Source of the DNA: the human T2T-CHM13v2.0 reference genome, Homo sapiens
DNA: 64,000 nucleotides
Direction of reading: 5' to 3'
Assembly: GCA_009914755.4 (NCBI GenBank)
Contig: CP086569.2
Span: forward strand, 51,296,001 to 51,360,000
Numbering within the stretch: position 1 is the first letter of the stretch; every line of letters begins with the position of its first letter. The position numbers and the translations under genes are program-made. The notes below the pieces were generated by a model. It was given only the letters and a program-made list of their open reading frames with translations. It was not told the origin of the DNA and made no database searches. This document shows positions 1-64,000 of this stretch, piece by piece.

Positions 1-2400
1 TATACAGTATCATATATATAATATATATAACCTATGTATAATATTGTTTTACATCCTGCATCTTATGTTATATATATTGTATAAAATATAATAATTGATA
101 ATATATAAGTTTTATATTTATACAATATGACATATAGTATATATTATAATTTATGACATATATAATATATGTTATATATCATATATGGAATATATTATAC
201 GGTTAATATACGTATTAAATATAAATTATACATTATATATATTATATATGATATATCTGTTATATATAATACCCATTATGCATAATATATATATTATGTC
301 TACGTTATATATAGTATAAAACAACATATAATAATATATAATTGTATATATAAAATGCGACATATAACATATATTATATTTTATGACATATGTAATATAT
401 ATTATATATTATATATAATACGTTGTATGTATAATACCTATATTAAATATATATTATATGACTATGTTATTAATTACATGTCACATATGTTATATATTAT
501 ATATTTTACATAGAATATACCGGTTACATACAATATATACTATGTTACCTATAATGTATAATTGATTACATGTAAAATAAAGAATGCAATATATTATGTA
601 TAATTTATAGTATACAATATGTGGAATGTGATATATATAACATATAACATATGATATATGATATACAGTATATGATATATAACATACAATATATGATATC
701 CAATATATATGGTATACAATATATATTTTATGTTATGTATTCTATATGTTTTATATTCTGTTATATATAACTATTTGAAATTATATATAACTGTATAATA
801 TTTTATGTAAATATGTAATATAATATATATAACTATAAAATATATTATATATAACTATATATTATGTTATATATACTTTTATAACATAATTTACATAAAA
901 TATCATAATATAATATATATTATATTATTTCACATTACATAATATATATTACATATCACCCAATATAAGTAACATACATAATATTATAATATAGATTATA
1001 TTATGTTATATTAAATATCATATATATCATGTATCATATATTCTATAATATATATTATACATTATATAATATGTATGTTGTCCATTATGTGATATATATT
1101 ACTATATATATAATTATATTATTATACATATAACTAGATAAACATGTAATTCTACATATTTTCATTTATAATATATAGAATTATTATATTCATATATAAT
1201 TATTTATATTCTATAAAAAATTATATCATTATATAAATTATAATATATAAAAATTATAAGATGTACTACCAGTATATATATTATATATCATATATGATAT
1301 AGTACCTTTGTTATATATCATAATACATATAAATGTGTATTATGTTATCTATAATTTTATAATTTCATATATAAGGTGTATAATATGTATTATATATTGT
1401 CTATGTTATGTAATATATATAGTATATATAAGCTGACACAGGATAAATATTATATACTATGACATATAAAATATATGAGGTTATATGTTACATATAAGGC
1501 GTAGCACATAACATGTAATATATATCATATATAATTTTTTTTTAGACAGAGTCTTGTCGTGTTGCACAGGGTGGAGTACAATGGCGCCATCTTTGCTCAC
1601 TGCAACATCTGCCTCACGGGTCCAAGCGATTGTCCTCCCTCAGCCTCCCAGGTAGCTGGAACTACACCACACTGGGACTACAGCAGCTGCCACCATGCCT
1701 AGCTAATTTTTTGGATTTTTAGTAGTGACAGCGTTTCACTGTATTGGCCAGGATGGTGTTGATCTCTTCACCTTGTGATACCCTTGCCTTGGCCTCCAAA
1801 TTTGCTGGGATTACAGGCCTGAGCCAAGATCCATATTTTTTAAATGAAGAAAAATTTCAAAGTTACTCTGCTTAGTACAATAATCAAACGTATAAACTGA
1901 GGAACAAAACATAACCATGAAACCTACTTATAACTGCATATGGAAAATACAGAGGATAACTTTTTAAATAACATATTTTGAAAGGCTTAACTAGTAATTT
2001 GAAGAGTTGGCATTTGAAAGGCCAGTATGAATATACCTTCAAAGCAGCAACACAGGTTCCCCATGAGAAAAAGCAAACTCAGGGAAAATAAAACCACAAA
2101 GGTTCAATCTCTTCTGACCTTTGAAAGACACAGCACAGACAGTGGTCCTTAGGACTAAGAGCAGGAGACCCCTAATTCCGTCACCATGGCGATAGGGCAT
2201 AAACATTGCTGGGTGAGGGCACAATCCACATTGTGAGGTCCAACTGCTGCCAGGAAGACAGGAGTGCTTTTACATAGACCGAAAGGTCATTGAAGGCTCA
2301 GAGTTTTGTTTCAAGAACTGAATCCCAAACCCACACGTTATTAGGCTGCGATTCTTAAAACAAGTTATGAGATGGGAAAAAGGGCACCCACAAACATACG
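1..2400. repeat. Array unit U0 (partial; first ~24 bp missing); type B (ancestral-like) Alu and core
   Basis: Aligns to 2425-4820. Alu head is gagtcttgtcgtg..ggagtacaatgg..caacatctg. Core has caaactcag/aaccac. AT-domain variants (ttatatttatac, atatggaatat) match U15. Confidence 0.9.
1535..1826 (-). mobile_element. Old AluS-lineage element embedded in unit U0 (type B, ancestral-like)
   Basis: On the + strand it runs poly-T(9)+agacagagtct..ggcctcc.aaa.tgctgggattacagg, which is the reverse complement of an Alu. S-type caagcgatt is present, CpGs are heavily decayed, and there is an internal 16-bp duplication gggactacaccacact|gggactacagcagctg. Confidence 0.88.
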
Positions 2401-4820
2401 TATACATTATGTATATAATAATATACAGTATCATATATATAATATATATAATCTATGTATAATATTGTTTTACATCCTGCATCTTATATTATATATATTG
2501 TATAAAATATAATAATTGATAATATATAAGTTTTATATTTATACAATAAGACATATAGTATATATTATAATTTATGACATATATAATATATGTTATATAT
2601 CATATATAGAATATATTATACGGTTAATATACGTATTAAATATAAATTATACATTATATATATTATATATAATATATCTGTTATATATAATACCCATTAT
2701 GCATAATATATATATTATGTCTATGTTATATATAGTATAAAACAACATATAATAATATATAATTGTATATAGAAAACGCGACATATAATATATATTATAT
2801 TTTATGACATATGTAATATATATTATATATTATATAAAATACGTTGTATGTATAATACCTATATTAAATATATATTATATGACTATGTTATTAATTACAT
2901 GTCACATATGTTATATATTATATATTTTACATAGAATATACCGGTTACATACAATATATACTATGTTACCTATAATGTATAATTGATTACATGTAAAATA
3001 AAGAATGCAATATATTACGTATAATTTATAATATACAATATGTGGAATGTGATATATATAACATATAATATATGATATATGATATACAGTATATGATAAT
3101 TAACATACAATATATGATACCTAATATATATGGTATACAATATATATTTTATGATATGTATTCTATATGTTTTATATTCTGTCATATATAACTATTTGAA
3201 ATTATATATAACTGTATAATATTTTATGTAAATATGTAATATAATATATATAACTATATAATATATTATATATAACTATATATTATGTTATATATACTTT
3301 TATAACATAATTTACATAAAATATCATAATATAATATATATTATATTATTTCATATTACATAATATATATTACATATCACCCAATATAACTAACATACAT
3401 AATATTATAATATAGATTATATTATGTTATATTAAATATCATATATATCATGTATCATATATTCTATAATATATATTACACATTATATAATATGTATGAT
3501 GTCTATTATGTGATATATATAACTATATATATAATTATATTTTTATACATATAACTAGATAAACACGTAATTCTACATATTTTCATTTATAATATGTAGA
3601 ATTATATAATCATATATAATTATTTATATTCTATAAAAAATTTTATCATTATATAAATTATAATATATAAAAATTATAATATGTACTACAAATATATATA
3701 TTATATATCATATATGATATAGTACCTTTGTTATATATCATAATACATATAAATGTGTATTATGTCATCTATAATTATATAATTTCATATATAAGACGTA
3801 TAATATGTATCATATATTATATATGTTATGTAATATATATAGTATATATAAGATGACACAGGATAAATATTATATACTATGACATATAAAGTATATGAGG
3901 TTATATGTTACATATAAGGCATAGCACATAACATGTAATATGTATCATATATAATTTTTTTTTAGACAGAATCTTGTCCTGTTGCACAGGGTGGGGTACA
4001 ATGGCGCCATCTTTGCTCACTGCAACTTCTGCCTCACGGGTCCAAGCGATTGTCCTCCCTCAGCCTCCCAGGTAGCTGGGACTACACCACACTGGGACTA
4101 CACCAGCTGCCACCATGCCTAGCTAATTTTTTGGATTTTTAGTAGTGACAGCGTTTCACTGTATTGGCCAGGATGGTCTTGATCTCTTCACCTTGTGATC
4201 CCCTTGCATTGGCCTCCAAATTTGCTGGGATTACAGGCCTGAGCCAAGATCCATATTTTTTAAATGAAAAAAAATTTCAAAGGTACTCTGCTTGGTACAA
4301 TAATCAAATGTATAAACTGAGGAATAAAACATAACCATGAAACCTACTTATAACTACATATGGAAAATACAGAGGATAATTTTTTAAATAACATATTTTG
4401 AAAGCCTTAACTAGTAATTTGAAGAGTTGGCATTTGAAAGGCCAGTATGAATATACCTTCAAAGCAGCAACACAGGTTCCCCATGAGAAAAAGCAAACAC
4501 AGGGAAAATAAAAACACAAAGGTTCAATCTCTTCTGACCTTTGAAAGACACAGCACAGACAGTGGTCCTTAGGACGAAGAGCAGGAGACCCCTAATTCCG
4601 TCACCATGGCGATAGGGCATAAACATTGCTGGGTGAGGGCACAATCCACATTGTGAGGTCCAACTGCTGCCAGGAAGACAGGAGTGCTTTTACATAGACC
4701 GAAAGGTCATTGAAGGCTCAGAGTTTTGTTTCAAGAACTGAATCCCAAGCCCACACGTTATTAGGCTGCGCTTCTTAAAACAAGTTATGAGATGGGAAAA
4801 AGGGCACCCACAAACATACG
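2401..4820. repeat. Array unit U1 (2420 bp); type A Alu
   Basis: Full unit. AT-domain variant tatagaaaacgcgac and the 60-aa + strand ORF are shared with U22 and U23. Confidence 0.9.
3955..4246 (-). mobile_element. Old AluS-lineage element, unit U1 (type A, derived)
   Basis: Same element, with derived changes gaatcttgtcctg, ggggtacaatgg and caacttctg that move away from the Alu consensus. Confidence 0.88.
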
Positions 4821-63111: not shown

Positions 63112-64000
63112 TATACATTATGTATATAATAATATACAGTATCATATATATAATATATATAACCTATGTATAATATTGTTTTACATCCTACATCTTATGT
63201 TATATATATTGTATAAAATATAATAATTGATAATATATAAGTTTTATAATTATACAATATGACATATAGTATATATTATAATTTATGACATATATAATAT
63301 ATGTTATATATCATATATAGAATATATTATACGGTTAATATACATATTAAATATAAATTATACATTATATATATTATATATAATATATCTGTTATATATA
63401 ATACCCATTATGCATAATATATATATTATGTCTATATTATATATATAGTATAAAACCACATATAATAATATATAATTGTATATATAAAATGCGACATATA
63501 ATATATATTATATTTTATAACATATGTAATATATATTATATATTATATATAATACGTTGTATGTATAATACCTATATTAAATATTTATTATATGACTATG
63601 TTATTAATTACATGTCACATGTGTTATATATTATATATTTTACATAGAATATACCGGTTACATACAATATATACTATGTTACCTATAATGTATAATTTCT
63701 TACATGTAAAATAAAGAATGCAATATATTATGTATAATTTATAATATACAATATGTGGAATGTGATATATATAACATATAATATATGATATATGATATAC
63801 AGTATATGATATATAACATACAATATATGATTCCTAATATATATGGTATACAATATATATTTTATGACATGTATTCTCTATGTTTTATATTCTGTTATAT
63901 ATAACTATTTGAAATTATATATAACTGTATAATATTTTATATAAATATGTAATATAATATATAACTATATAATATATTATATATAACTATATATTATGTT
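63112..64000. repeat. Array unit U26 (partial, AT domain only); near-identical to U24 and U25
   Basis: Shares the U24/U25 private variants up to the window end. Confidence 0.88.

What the first reader, a model, noticed from the sequence alone, without database searches (positions are those of the whole stretch)
1..64000. Composite macrosatellite: at least 26 tandem copies of a 2.4 kb unit built from an AT-rich domain, an old Alu and a core of unknown origin
The whole window is a highly ordered array, and the unit itself is a composite of three unrelated sequence types. Every unit carries the same Alu, with the same internal 16-bp duplication. The unit was therefore assembled first and the array amplified afterwards, by unequal crossing-over or replication slippage, within primate evolution. 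Arrays like this are often copy-number variable, frequently collapsed in assemblies, and can nucleate heterochromatin. I could not assign it to a named satellite family from memory (it is not alpha, beta or gamma satellite, D4Z4, DXZ4, SST1 or HSat).
Basis: seen in the sequence. Interest (0 to 1): 0.6.

Follow-up and report, generated by a model that had tools for sequence, protein, structure and literature searches.

The report
Known human Y satellite DYZ2 (HSat1B)
The window is a real, well-ordered tandem array, but it is the long-known human satellite DYZ2 (HSat1B/HSATI) that fills much of the Y long-arm heterochromatin, so it is ordinary rather than new.

Summary
The whole 64 kb is one head-to-tail array: 25 complete units, one near-complete unit and one partial unit. 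The period is 2,412-2,422 bp and mean pairwise identity is 98.1%. Each unit has a 1.55 kb AT-rich domain (13.6% GC), one old minus-strand Alu and a 568 bp core.

It is DYZ2 = HSat1B = Repbase/Dfam HSATI, first described in 1984 and fully sequenced in T2T-Y in 2023. The evidence:
- The window consensus is exactly 2,420 bp, the published DYZ2 consensus length.
- The published ACATACG junction heptamer, 24% GC and about 1 CpG per 150 bp are all reproduced.
- A published 40-nt Yq-specific probe target hits 26 of 26 units.
- A collapsed human-contaminant contig in a Mycobacterium assembly is 100% identical to the window consensus over 2,497 bp.

All 26 units fall in the homogeneous sequence class expected for Yq12. 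They do not fall in the 94-96% class, which is probably acrocentric.

This is a kind of insertion already reported in Yq12.

Novelty: already known. Interest is low.

The parts
1..64000 (.). Uninterrupted DYZ2/HSat1B tandem array: 25 complete units, one near-complete unit and one partial unit. No flanking sequence and no DYZ1.
   Evidence: 26 anchors, period 2,412-2,422 bp (one unit of 2,699 bp), 98.1% mean pairwise identity, unit lengths sum to 64,000.
2401..4820 (.). Representative complete unit (U01, 2,420 bp), the same length as the window consensus and the published DYZ2 consensus.
   Evidence: unit list and consensus; published 2,420 bp consensus.
2401..3954 (.). AT-rich domain of U01 (1,554 bp, about 13.6% GC). 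It is built from degenerate short AT motifs (periods 7, 16, 22, 58) plus one internal duplication of about 230 bp.
   Evidence: Described as an 'extremely AT-rich region (>85% AT)'.
   Evidence: AluY positions 13-280, 81.7% identity, 22 of 49 mismatches at consensus CpG sites; published 290 +/- 2 bp, about 20% diverged.
4076..4102 (-). Internal duplication of about 15-16 nt in the right arm of the resident Alu (CTGGGACTACACCACA / CTGGGACTACA...), present in 26 of 26 copies.
   Evidence: 15 gap columns against AluY; 26 hits, one per unit.
4222..4261 (-). 40-nt target of the published 'Y-chrom' padlock probe, spanning the junction of the truncated Alu 5' end and the core. A DraI site follows it, as in the publication.
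   Evidence: probe sequence, taken from Frommer 1984; FISH signal on Yq only. (26 of 26 units: 20 exact, 6 with one mismatch; 0 expected by chance). (DraI sites).
4253..4820 (.). Core of U01, the 'HSATI' portion (568 bp, 39% GC). Non-coding and the least variable domain.
   Evidence: pairwise difference 1.1%; ORFs of 71 aa or less; no Pfam hit; published HSATI portion 566 +/- 16 bp.
4814..4820 (+). ACATACG heptamer at the core/AT-rich junction. It is exact in 24 of 26 copies and has one substitution in the other two.
   Evidence: One search names this heptamer at this junction in the DYZ2 consensus.
47370..47637 (+). Young 5'-truncated AluY-lineage insertion with a 23-nt poly(A) tail, in the AT-rich domain of unit 19 only. 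It lies opposite in orientation to the resident Alu.
   Evidence: 98.8% identity to AluY positions 39-281; two young AluY insertions in the AT-rich part of DYZ2 are reported for Yq12.
47358..47369 (+). Left copy of the 12-bp target-site duplication AGGATAAATATT.
47638..47649 (+). Right copy of the 12-bp target-site duplication AGGATAAATATT.
2817..2823 (.). Site of a 7-bp AT-motif indel (consensus positions 417-423). Its deletion produces the 2,413 bp unit variant in U06-U10, U13 and U18.

Best explanation
The window is a stretch from inside an array of the human satellite DYZ2 (HSat1B; Repbase/Dfam HSATI), most probably from the Yq12 heterochromatin of a Y chromosome.

Shown here or in the literature:
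- The unit is a non-coding 2,420 bp composite. In the window's + orientation it runs AT-rich domain, then one ancient 5'-truncated Alu on the minus strand, then a 568 bp core.
- All copies share one Alu truncation point, one internal duplication and one set of junctions, so the composite arose once and was then amplified.

Inferred from the variant pattern and the literature:
- The array grows, shrinks and is homogenised by unequal sister-chromatid exchange, with contributions from gene conversion and possibly replication slippage.
- This fits the fall of identity with distance, the neighbouring near-identical unit pairs, the small clusters of units sharing derived variants, and the absence of any multi-unit higher-order repeat.

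From the literature only:
- The array is hypermethylated constitutive heterochromatin, hugely copy-number variable between men, and has no demonstrated sequence-specific function.

The single young AluY in unit 19 is an ordinary target-primed retrotransposition event. It has not been spread by local duplication within this window.
For: - Period and consensus: the window consensus is exactly 2,420 bp, equal to the published DYZ2 consensus. The two published lengths, 2,413 and 2,420 bp, are the two commonest periods in the window.
- Anatomy: the window gives Alu about 298 bp with its tail, core 568 bp and AT-rich domain at 13.6% GC. The published values are Alu 290 +/- 2 bp at about 20% divergence, HSATI 566 +/- 16 bp and an AT-rich region above 85% AT.
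- Junction: ACATACG sits at the core/AT-rich junction, as published.
- Composition: GC is 24.4% and CpG density is 1 per 139 bp in the window and 1 per 151 bp in the consensus. The published values are 24% and 1 per 150 bp.
- Direct sequence test: the 40-nt padlock target designed from the 1984 male-specific satellite I sequence, which labelled only Yq, matches 26 of 26 units, 20 of them exactly.
- Independent copies: the same 40-mer lies on short contigs in 17 bacterial assemblies, the contamination signature described for HSat1B. Contig L001 (2,497 bp, one unit plus a 77 bp wrap-around) is 100.000% identical to the window consensus. L005 is 99.9% and L003 is 99.7% identical.
- Independent tandem spacing: three metagenome contigs (L038, L053, L054) carry two anchors exactly 2,420 bp apart.
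- Sequence class: independent copies fall into a tight class at 99% or above and a looser class at 94-96%. All 26 window units carry the tight-class allele at 19-21 of 21 diagnostic sites. This matches the published picture of homogenised Y copies versus more divergent acrocentric copies.
- Homogeneity: 98.1% pairwise identity and about 99.0% to the consensus, against the published 'over 98% identical'.
- Non-coding: no ORF exceeds 71 aa, there are no Pfam hits, and Rfam gives only sub-threshold hits to the Alu-derived mir-1268 family.
- Array dynamics: identity is 98.5% at lag 1 and falls to about 98.0% at lag 8 and beyond. The pairs U7/U8, U11/U12 and U24/U25 are 99.8% identical, and shared derived alleles mostly link adjacent units.
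Against: - No human reference genome, Dfam model or published consensus sequence could be aligned, so the chromosomal position is inferred and not mapped.
- The window holds no flank and no DYZ1 block, so the Yq12 context (alternating DYZ1 and DYZ2) is not seen.
- The class-1 versus class-2 test is partly circular, because class 1 was defined by closeness to the window's own consensus. Calling class 2 'acrocentric' is an inference.
- The mechanism (unequal exchange, heterochromatin) rests on the literature and on variant patterns, not on any experiment here.
Confidence: 0.93

Rival explanations
1. It is the same family (HSat1B) but lies on an acrocentric short arm (chr13, 14, 15, 21 or 22) or chromosome 10 rather than on Yq12.
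For: HSat1B also occurs on the acrocentric short arms and chr10 in smaller amounts. The window contains no DYZ1 or other flank that would tie it to Yq12. The published DYZ2 HMM is described as 'Y-unspecific'.
Against: [quoted passage not shown] The window consensus is 100% identical to the collapsed dominant-class contaminant unit. All units carry the homogeneous-class alleles and not the 94-96% class. Acrocentric HSat1B shows low allelic identity, below 95%, whereas this array is 98.1% self-identical. The Yq-only padlock target matches exactly.
Confidence: 0.06
2. The array is an assembly artefact: over-expansion or mis-joining of a repeat, so that the order and number of units are not real.
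For: Satellite arrays are error-prone in assemblies. No read-level data could be examined here.
Against: The units are not clones of each other. There are 341 variable sites, 242 of them singletons, several distinct indel variants (2,412-2,422 bp) and one unit with a unique Alu insertion. Tandem spacing of exactly 2,420 bp is reproduced in independent metagenome assemblies. The same architecture is validated with long reads in the literature.
Confidence: 0.02
3. It is a previously unnamed composite macrosatellite.
Against: Every published defining feature of DYZ2/HSat1B that could be tested was met, including an exact published 40-nt probe sequence and the 2,420 bp consensus length.
Confidence: 0.005

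Closest known systems
[quoted passage not shown] It was fully sequenced in T2T-Y (Rhie et al. 2023) and in 43 and then 142 Y assemblies (Hallast et al. 2023; PMC13252187).
   Same: Unit length (2,420 bp consensus), three-part composition, a single-origin 5'-truncated Alu about 20% diverged, an HSATI core of about 566 bp, the ACATACG junction, 24% GC, about 1 CpG per 150 bp, over 98% unit identity, the published 40-nt probe target, and young AluY insertions in the AT-rich domain.
   Different: Nothing found. The chromosomal position (Yq12 versus the minor acrocentric sites) could not be mapped directly.
HSat1A (SAR), the other 'satellite I' family
   Same: Extremely AT-rich, and historically isolated in the same density fraction.
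   Different: HSat1A is a 42 bp repeat (17 + 25 bp) with no Alu or core. No 42 bp period is present here: TRF finds periods of 7, 16, 22, 58 and 230 bp.
DYZ1 (HSat3A6), the partner satellite of Yq12
   Same: It is also a kb-scale nested tandem repeat, it alternates with DYZ2 blocks, and it evolves by unequal exchange.
   Different: DYZ1 is a unit of about 3.5-3.6 kb derived from (CATTC)n pentamers with 38% GC. The window has neither that period nor that composition.
Composite satellites of T2T-CHM13 (Hoyt et al.; cited)
   Same: The repeating unit includes a fragment of an ancient transposable element.
   Different: This is a general descriptive class. HSat1B is one of its classical examples and not a new instance.

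Membership tests
DYZ2 / HSat1B / HSATI | Tandem unit of about 2.4-2.5 kb, with a published consensus of 2,420 bp (2,413 bp also reported as a modal length) | tested here: met
   The window consensus is 2,420 bp. Unit lengths are 2,412-2,422 bp, and 2,413 and 2,420 are the commonest periods.
DYZ2 / HSat1B / HSATI | Three-part unit: an extremely AT-rich region (>85% AT), one ancient Alu and a more GC-rich (HSATI) region | tested here: met
   AT-rich 1,554 bp at 86.4% AT, Alu 298 bp, core 568 bp at 39% GC. Published description.
DYZ2 / HSat1B / HSATI | Single-origin 5'-truncated Alu, 290 +/- 2 bp, about 20% diverged from AluY | tested here: met
The body is 289 nt, and the truncation and duplication are the same in 26 of 26 copies. 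Published values.
DYZ2 / HSat1B / HSATI | HSATI portion of about 566 bp ending in ACATACG at the junction with the AT-rich repeat | tested here: met
   The core is 568 bp. ACATACG is at the junction in 24 of 26 copies, with one substitution in the other two. Published.
DYZ2 / HSat1B / HSATI | Base composition of 24% GC and about 1 CpG per 150 bp | tested here: met
   24.4% GC; 1 CpG per 139 bp in the window and 1 per 151 bp in the consensus. Published.
DYZ2 / HSat1B / HSATI | Sequence identity to the originally published male-specific satellite I sequence (Frommer 1984) | tested here: met
   Only a 40-nt stretch was available, through the padlock probe of PMC2212658. It matches 26 of 26 units, 20 exactly, with 0 expected by chance. 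The full 1984 sequence is not held.
DYZ2 / HSat1B / HSATI | Matches the HSat1B human contaminant found in bacterial assemblies | tested here: met
   17 contaminated assemblies were found. L001 is 100% identical to the window consensus over 2,497 bp. The phenomenon is described.
DYZ2 / HSat1B / HSATI | Male-specific HaeIII fragment of about 2.1 kb (classical definition, recalled from memory: Cooke 1976) | tested here: met
   In-silico HaeIII digestion gives one fragment of 2,139-2,148 bp per unit plus fragments of 45, 25 and 204 bp. No citable source was found in the library.
DYZ2 / HSat1B / HSATI | Masked by the Dfam/Repbase HSATI model (DF0000210) | not testable with these tools
   No Dfam or RepeatMasker is available.
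DYZ2 on Yq12 specifically | Lies in Yq12, in blocks alternating with DYZ1 (HSat3) | not testable with these tools
   The window has no flank and no human reference is available. Indirect support: all units belong to the homogeneous dominant class, and unit identity exceeds 98% as on the Y.
DYZ2 on Yq12 specifically | CpG hypermethylation / constitutive heterochromatin | not testable with these tools
   This needs methylation or chromatin data. Reported.
HSat1A (SAR) | 42 bp (17 + 25 bp) basic repeat | tested here: not met
   TRF finds no 42 bp period in the AT-rich domain.

The most novel reading that the evidence does not exclude
The most novel reading still open has two alternatives. The window could be a Y-type (homogenised-class) HSat1B array sitting at a non-Y location, which would point to a recent Y-to-autosome transfer. 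Or the 5'-truncated AluY in unit 19 (TSD AGGATAAATATT) could be an uncatalogued, lineage-specific insertion, useful as a marker for tracing unequal-exchange events in Yq12. Neither alternative would change what the satellite is.
Probability: 0.07. Interest if true: 0.3.

Novelty: already known. Interest (0 to 1): 0.08.

Why it matters
It matters little as a discovery. DYZ2 has been known since the 1970s-80s and was resolved base by base in 2023. The value here is mainly practical. First, such windows should be recognised and filtered as HSat1B and not flagged as novel macrosatellites. Second, the same sequence is a frequent human contaminant in bacterial and metagenome assemblies: 17 species-representative genomes and 44 metagenome contigs were found with single exact-match scans. 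Third, the small-scale variant pattern, the transversion-rich spectrum and the single-copy young Alu illustrate how Yq12 arrays turn over, which is already under active study.

Tried and rejected
- Rfam search of three units gave only sub-threshold hits to mir-1268, an Alu-derived family, inside the resident Alu. There was no SRP/7SL hit or any other RNA family, so no structured RNA is supported.
- ORF listing and a Pfam scan of the core found ORFs of 71 aa or less and no family match. A coding origin for the core is not supported, and its deeper origin remains undetermined.
- Single-strand DNA folding gave z = -2.0 for the AT-rich domain (20 shuffles) and z = -1.3 for the core. There is no convincing structure beyond what the composition gives.
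- The search for a multi-unit higher-order repeat found none. Identity only decays smoothly with lag.
- The original 1984 paper (PMC318713) is not held.
- The T2T-Y paper's FISH primers are not in the held text.
- A search of the Hallast supplement for the TSD AGGATAAATATT found nothing. Table S28 is not held as text.
- A metagenome scan for the young-Alu left junction gave 0 hits, so whether the insertion is shared between individuals could not be tested.
- A literature search for the classical 2.1 kb HaeIII definition found no citable source in this library.
- No clear target-site duplication flanks the resident old Alu when read by eye. This fits its truncated 5' end being a rearrangement junction, but I did not test it formally.
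Full report
**1. The observation**

The window is a single uninterrupted tandem array. A conserved 30-mer from the GC-richer part occurs 26 times at spacings of 2,412-2,422 bp, with one spacing of 2,699 bp. The commonest distances between identical 20-mers are 2,413 and 2,420 bp. GC content cycles between about 12-18% and about 40-45% with the same period.

Cutting at the core/AT-rich junction gives 25 complete units, a first unit lacking its first 20 bp (1-2400) and a final partial unit of 889 bp. 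Together they account for all 64,000 bases. Mean pairwise identity of the complete units is 98.1% (range 95.6-99.8%), and the majority-rule consensus is exactly 2,420 bp.

**2. Anatomy of the unit**

In consensus coordinates, starting after the junction heptamer, the unit has three domains.

- Positions 1-1554 form an AT-rich domain with 13.6% GC.
- Positions 1555-1852 hold an Alu on the minus strand.
- Positions 1853-2420 form a core with 39% GC.

The AT-rich domain is built from degenerate short AT motifs. TRF finds periods of 7, 16, 22 and 58 bp, with one duplication of about 230 bp near its start.

Of its 49 mismatches, 22 fall at consensus CpG sites. It is 5'-truncated and carries 15 extra nucleotides that duplicate the GTAGTCCCAG region. 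That duplication, the truncation point and both junctions are the same in all 26 copies.

The core has no ORF above 71 aa, no Pfam match and no Rfam match. The only Rfam hits in the unit are sub-threshold matches to the Alu-derived mir-1268 family, inside the Alu. Single-strand folding shows nothing convincing beyond composition.

**3. Identity**

The unit matches my recollection of DYZ2, so I tested the features the literature gives for it.

- Rhie et al. 2023 describe DYZ2/HSat1B as a tandem repeat of about 2.5 kb. [quoted passage not shown] Most copies are over 98% identical.
- Hallast et al. 2023 give a final consensus of 2,420 bp and a modal extracted length of 2,413 bp. They name the heptamer ACATACG at the HSATI/AT-rich junction, and they report 24% GC and 1 CpG per 150 bp.
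- Their supplement gives an Alu of 290 +/- 2 bp ('single origin', about 20% diverged, AluS not excluded) and an HSATI portion of 566 +/- 16 bp.

The window reproduces every one of these features.

- Its consensus is 2,420 bp, and 2,413 and 2,420 bp are the two commonest periods.
- ACATACG sits at the junction in 24 of 26 copies, with single substitutions in the other two.
- GC is 24.4%. CpG density is 1 per 139 bp in the window and 1 per 151 bp in the consensus.
- The Alu body is 289 nt, and the core is 568 bp.

In this window the 2,413 bp variant is produced by a 7-bp AT-motif deletion at consensus positions 417-423, and not by loss of ACATACG.

A direct sequence test was also possible. Lohmann et al. 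2007 (PMC2212658) designed a padlock probe on the male-specific satellite I sequence of Frommer et al. 1984. [quoted passage not shown] That 40-mer spans the truncated Alu 5' end and the start of the core. It matches 26 of 26 units, 20 exactly and 6 with one mismatch, with none expected by chance. The DraI site used in that protocol follows it.

In-silico HaeIII digestion yields one fragment of 2,139-2,148 bp per unit. This agrees with the classical male-specific HaeIII band of about 2.1 kb, which I cite from memory only because no source is held.

**4. Independent copies from elsewhere**

The T2T-Y paper reports that HSat1B is a common human contaminant of bacterial assemblies. Scanning one genome per prokaryotic species for the 40-mer found it on short contigs in 17 assemblies.

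Contig L001 comes from a Mycobacterium assembly. At 2,497 bp it is one unit plus a 77 bp wrap-around, and it is 100.000% identical to the window's consensus along its whole length. L005 is 99.9% identical and L003 is 99.7%. The window's consensus is therefore the consensus that collapses out of unrelated human DNA.

A scan of metagenome contigs with a 27-mer of the core returned 44 loci. In three of them two anchors lie exactly 2,420 bp apart.

The Alu+core segments of all these copies are bimodal relative to the window consensus. 25 of them are at 99% or above, 18 are at 94-96% with a 2-bp shorter segment, and a few are much more diverged at 78-90%. Twenty-one columns separate the two main classes, and every window unit carries the tight-class allele at 19-21 of them.

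This test is partly circular, because the tight class was defined by closeness to the window consensus. What is independent is that two natural classes exist and that the window lies in the homogeneous one: internal identity is 99.6% in the tight class and 96.8% in the other.

The published picture is similar. Y copies form one homogenised cluster, acrocentric copies form separate clusters, and acrocentric HSat1B alleles often align at below 95%. [quoted passage not shown] On this basis I assign the window to Yq12 with about 90% confidence, and to the family with near certainty.

**5. How it works**

- Shown: the array is non-coding and highly homogeneous, and it derives from a single founding unit.
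- Inferred from the variant pattern: turnover is local. Identity falls from 98.5% between neighbours to about 98.0% at eight or more units apart, and there is no multi-unit periodicity. Three neighbouring pairs are 99.8% identical. Most shared derived alleles link adjacent or nearby units, and 242 of the 359 derived alleles at the 341 variable sites are singletons.
- This pattern is what unequal sister-chromatid exchange with some gene conversion produces. The Y-assembly papers propose the same mechanism and support it with pedigree data.
- From the literature only: the arrays are hypermethylated heterochromatin and vary more than fivefold in total length among men. They also keep a DYZ1:DYZ2 unit ratio close to 1:1, for unknown reasons.

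**6.

Unit 19 is 2,699 bp long because it contains a second Alu at 47370-47637. This Alu is on the plus strand and is 98.8% identical to AluY positions 39-281. It has a 23-nt poly(A) tail and a perfect 12-bp target-site duplication, AGGATAAATATT (47358-47369 and 47638-47649). It is inserted after consensus position 1459 in the AT-rich domain.

Hallast et al. report exactly this kind of event: two young AluY insertions in the AT-rich part of DYZ2, present at 1-17 copies per Y. I could not compare TSDs because Table S28 is not held. The junction was not found in metagenome contigs.

**7. Verdict**

But this is DYZ2/HSat1B/HSATI, a satellite described in 1984 and completely sequenced in 2023. The statement that it is 'not HSat' is wrong. 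Novelty: already known. Interest: low.

Noticed in passing
window 47358-47649 (unit 19): A young, 5'-truncated AluY-lineage element on the + strand, 98.8% identical to AluY, with a 23-nt poly(A) tail and a perfect 12-bp TSD AGGATAAATATT. It is inserted in the AT-rich domain of a single unit, making that unit 2,699 bp long. It fits the class of Yq12 AluY insertions reported by Hallast et al., but the TSD could not be compared.
   Followed up: partly
whole window (341 variable consensus positions): Variation among units is transversion-rich: 158 transitions against 201 transversions, a ratio of about 0.79. T>A and A>T are prominent, and only 8 of 622 per-copy differences are CpG transitions. This is far from the genome-wide ratio of about 2:1. 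It may reflect the unusual mutational regime reported for Yq12 and the acrocentric satellites or the AT-rich context.
   Followed up: partly
window 33809-55849 versus 2401-33808: Homogeneity is uneven. Units 1-13 are 0.3-1.0% from the consensus. Units 14-23 are 0.7-3.4% from it, and unit 16 (38649-41068) is the outlier at 3.4% (4.5% in its AT-rich domain). The last two units (58268-63111) are again a 99.8% identical pair.
   Followed up: no
window units U06-U10, U13, U18 (for example 14492-26555): A 7-bp AT-motif deletion at consensus positions 417-423 defines the 2,413 bp unit variant. It occurs in a run of five adjacent units plus two isolated ones, which suggests local block duplication or conversion.
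   Followed up: partly
window 1639-1705, 4059-4125, 6480-6546 (- strand): Sub-threshold Rfam matches to mir-1268 (34-36 bits against a gathering score of 83) inside the resident Alu. They reflect the Alu origin of that miRNA family and are not a gene.
   Followed up: yes
L001-L017 (for example LZSC01000004.1, Mycobacterium sp. 1100029.7; BMRF01000089.1, Actinomadura cremea): Seventeen species-representative bacterial genome assemblies contain short contigs that are human DYZ2/HSat1B, which is contamination. Several are a single collapsed unit.
   Followed up: yes
L018 (BNJT01002008.1, 54 kb metagenome contig), L019-L055: Metagenome contigs hold a second HSat1B sequence class at 94-96% identity (Alu+core 864 bp). 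L018 holds tandem copies only 78-90% identical to the window consensus next to one at 97%. These are probably acrocentric or array-edge copies.
   Followed up: partly
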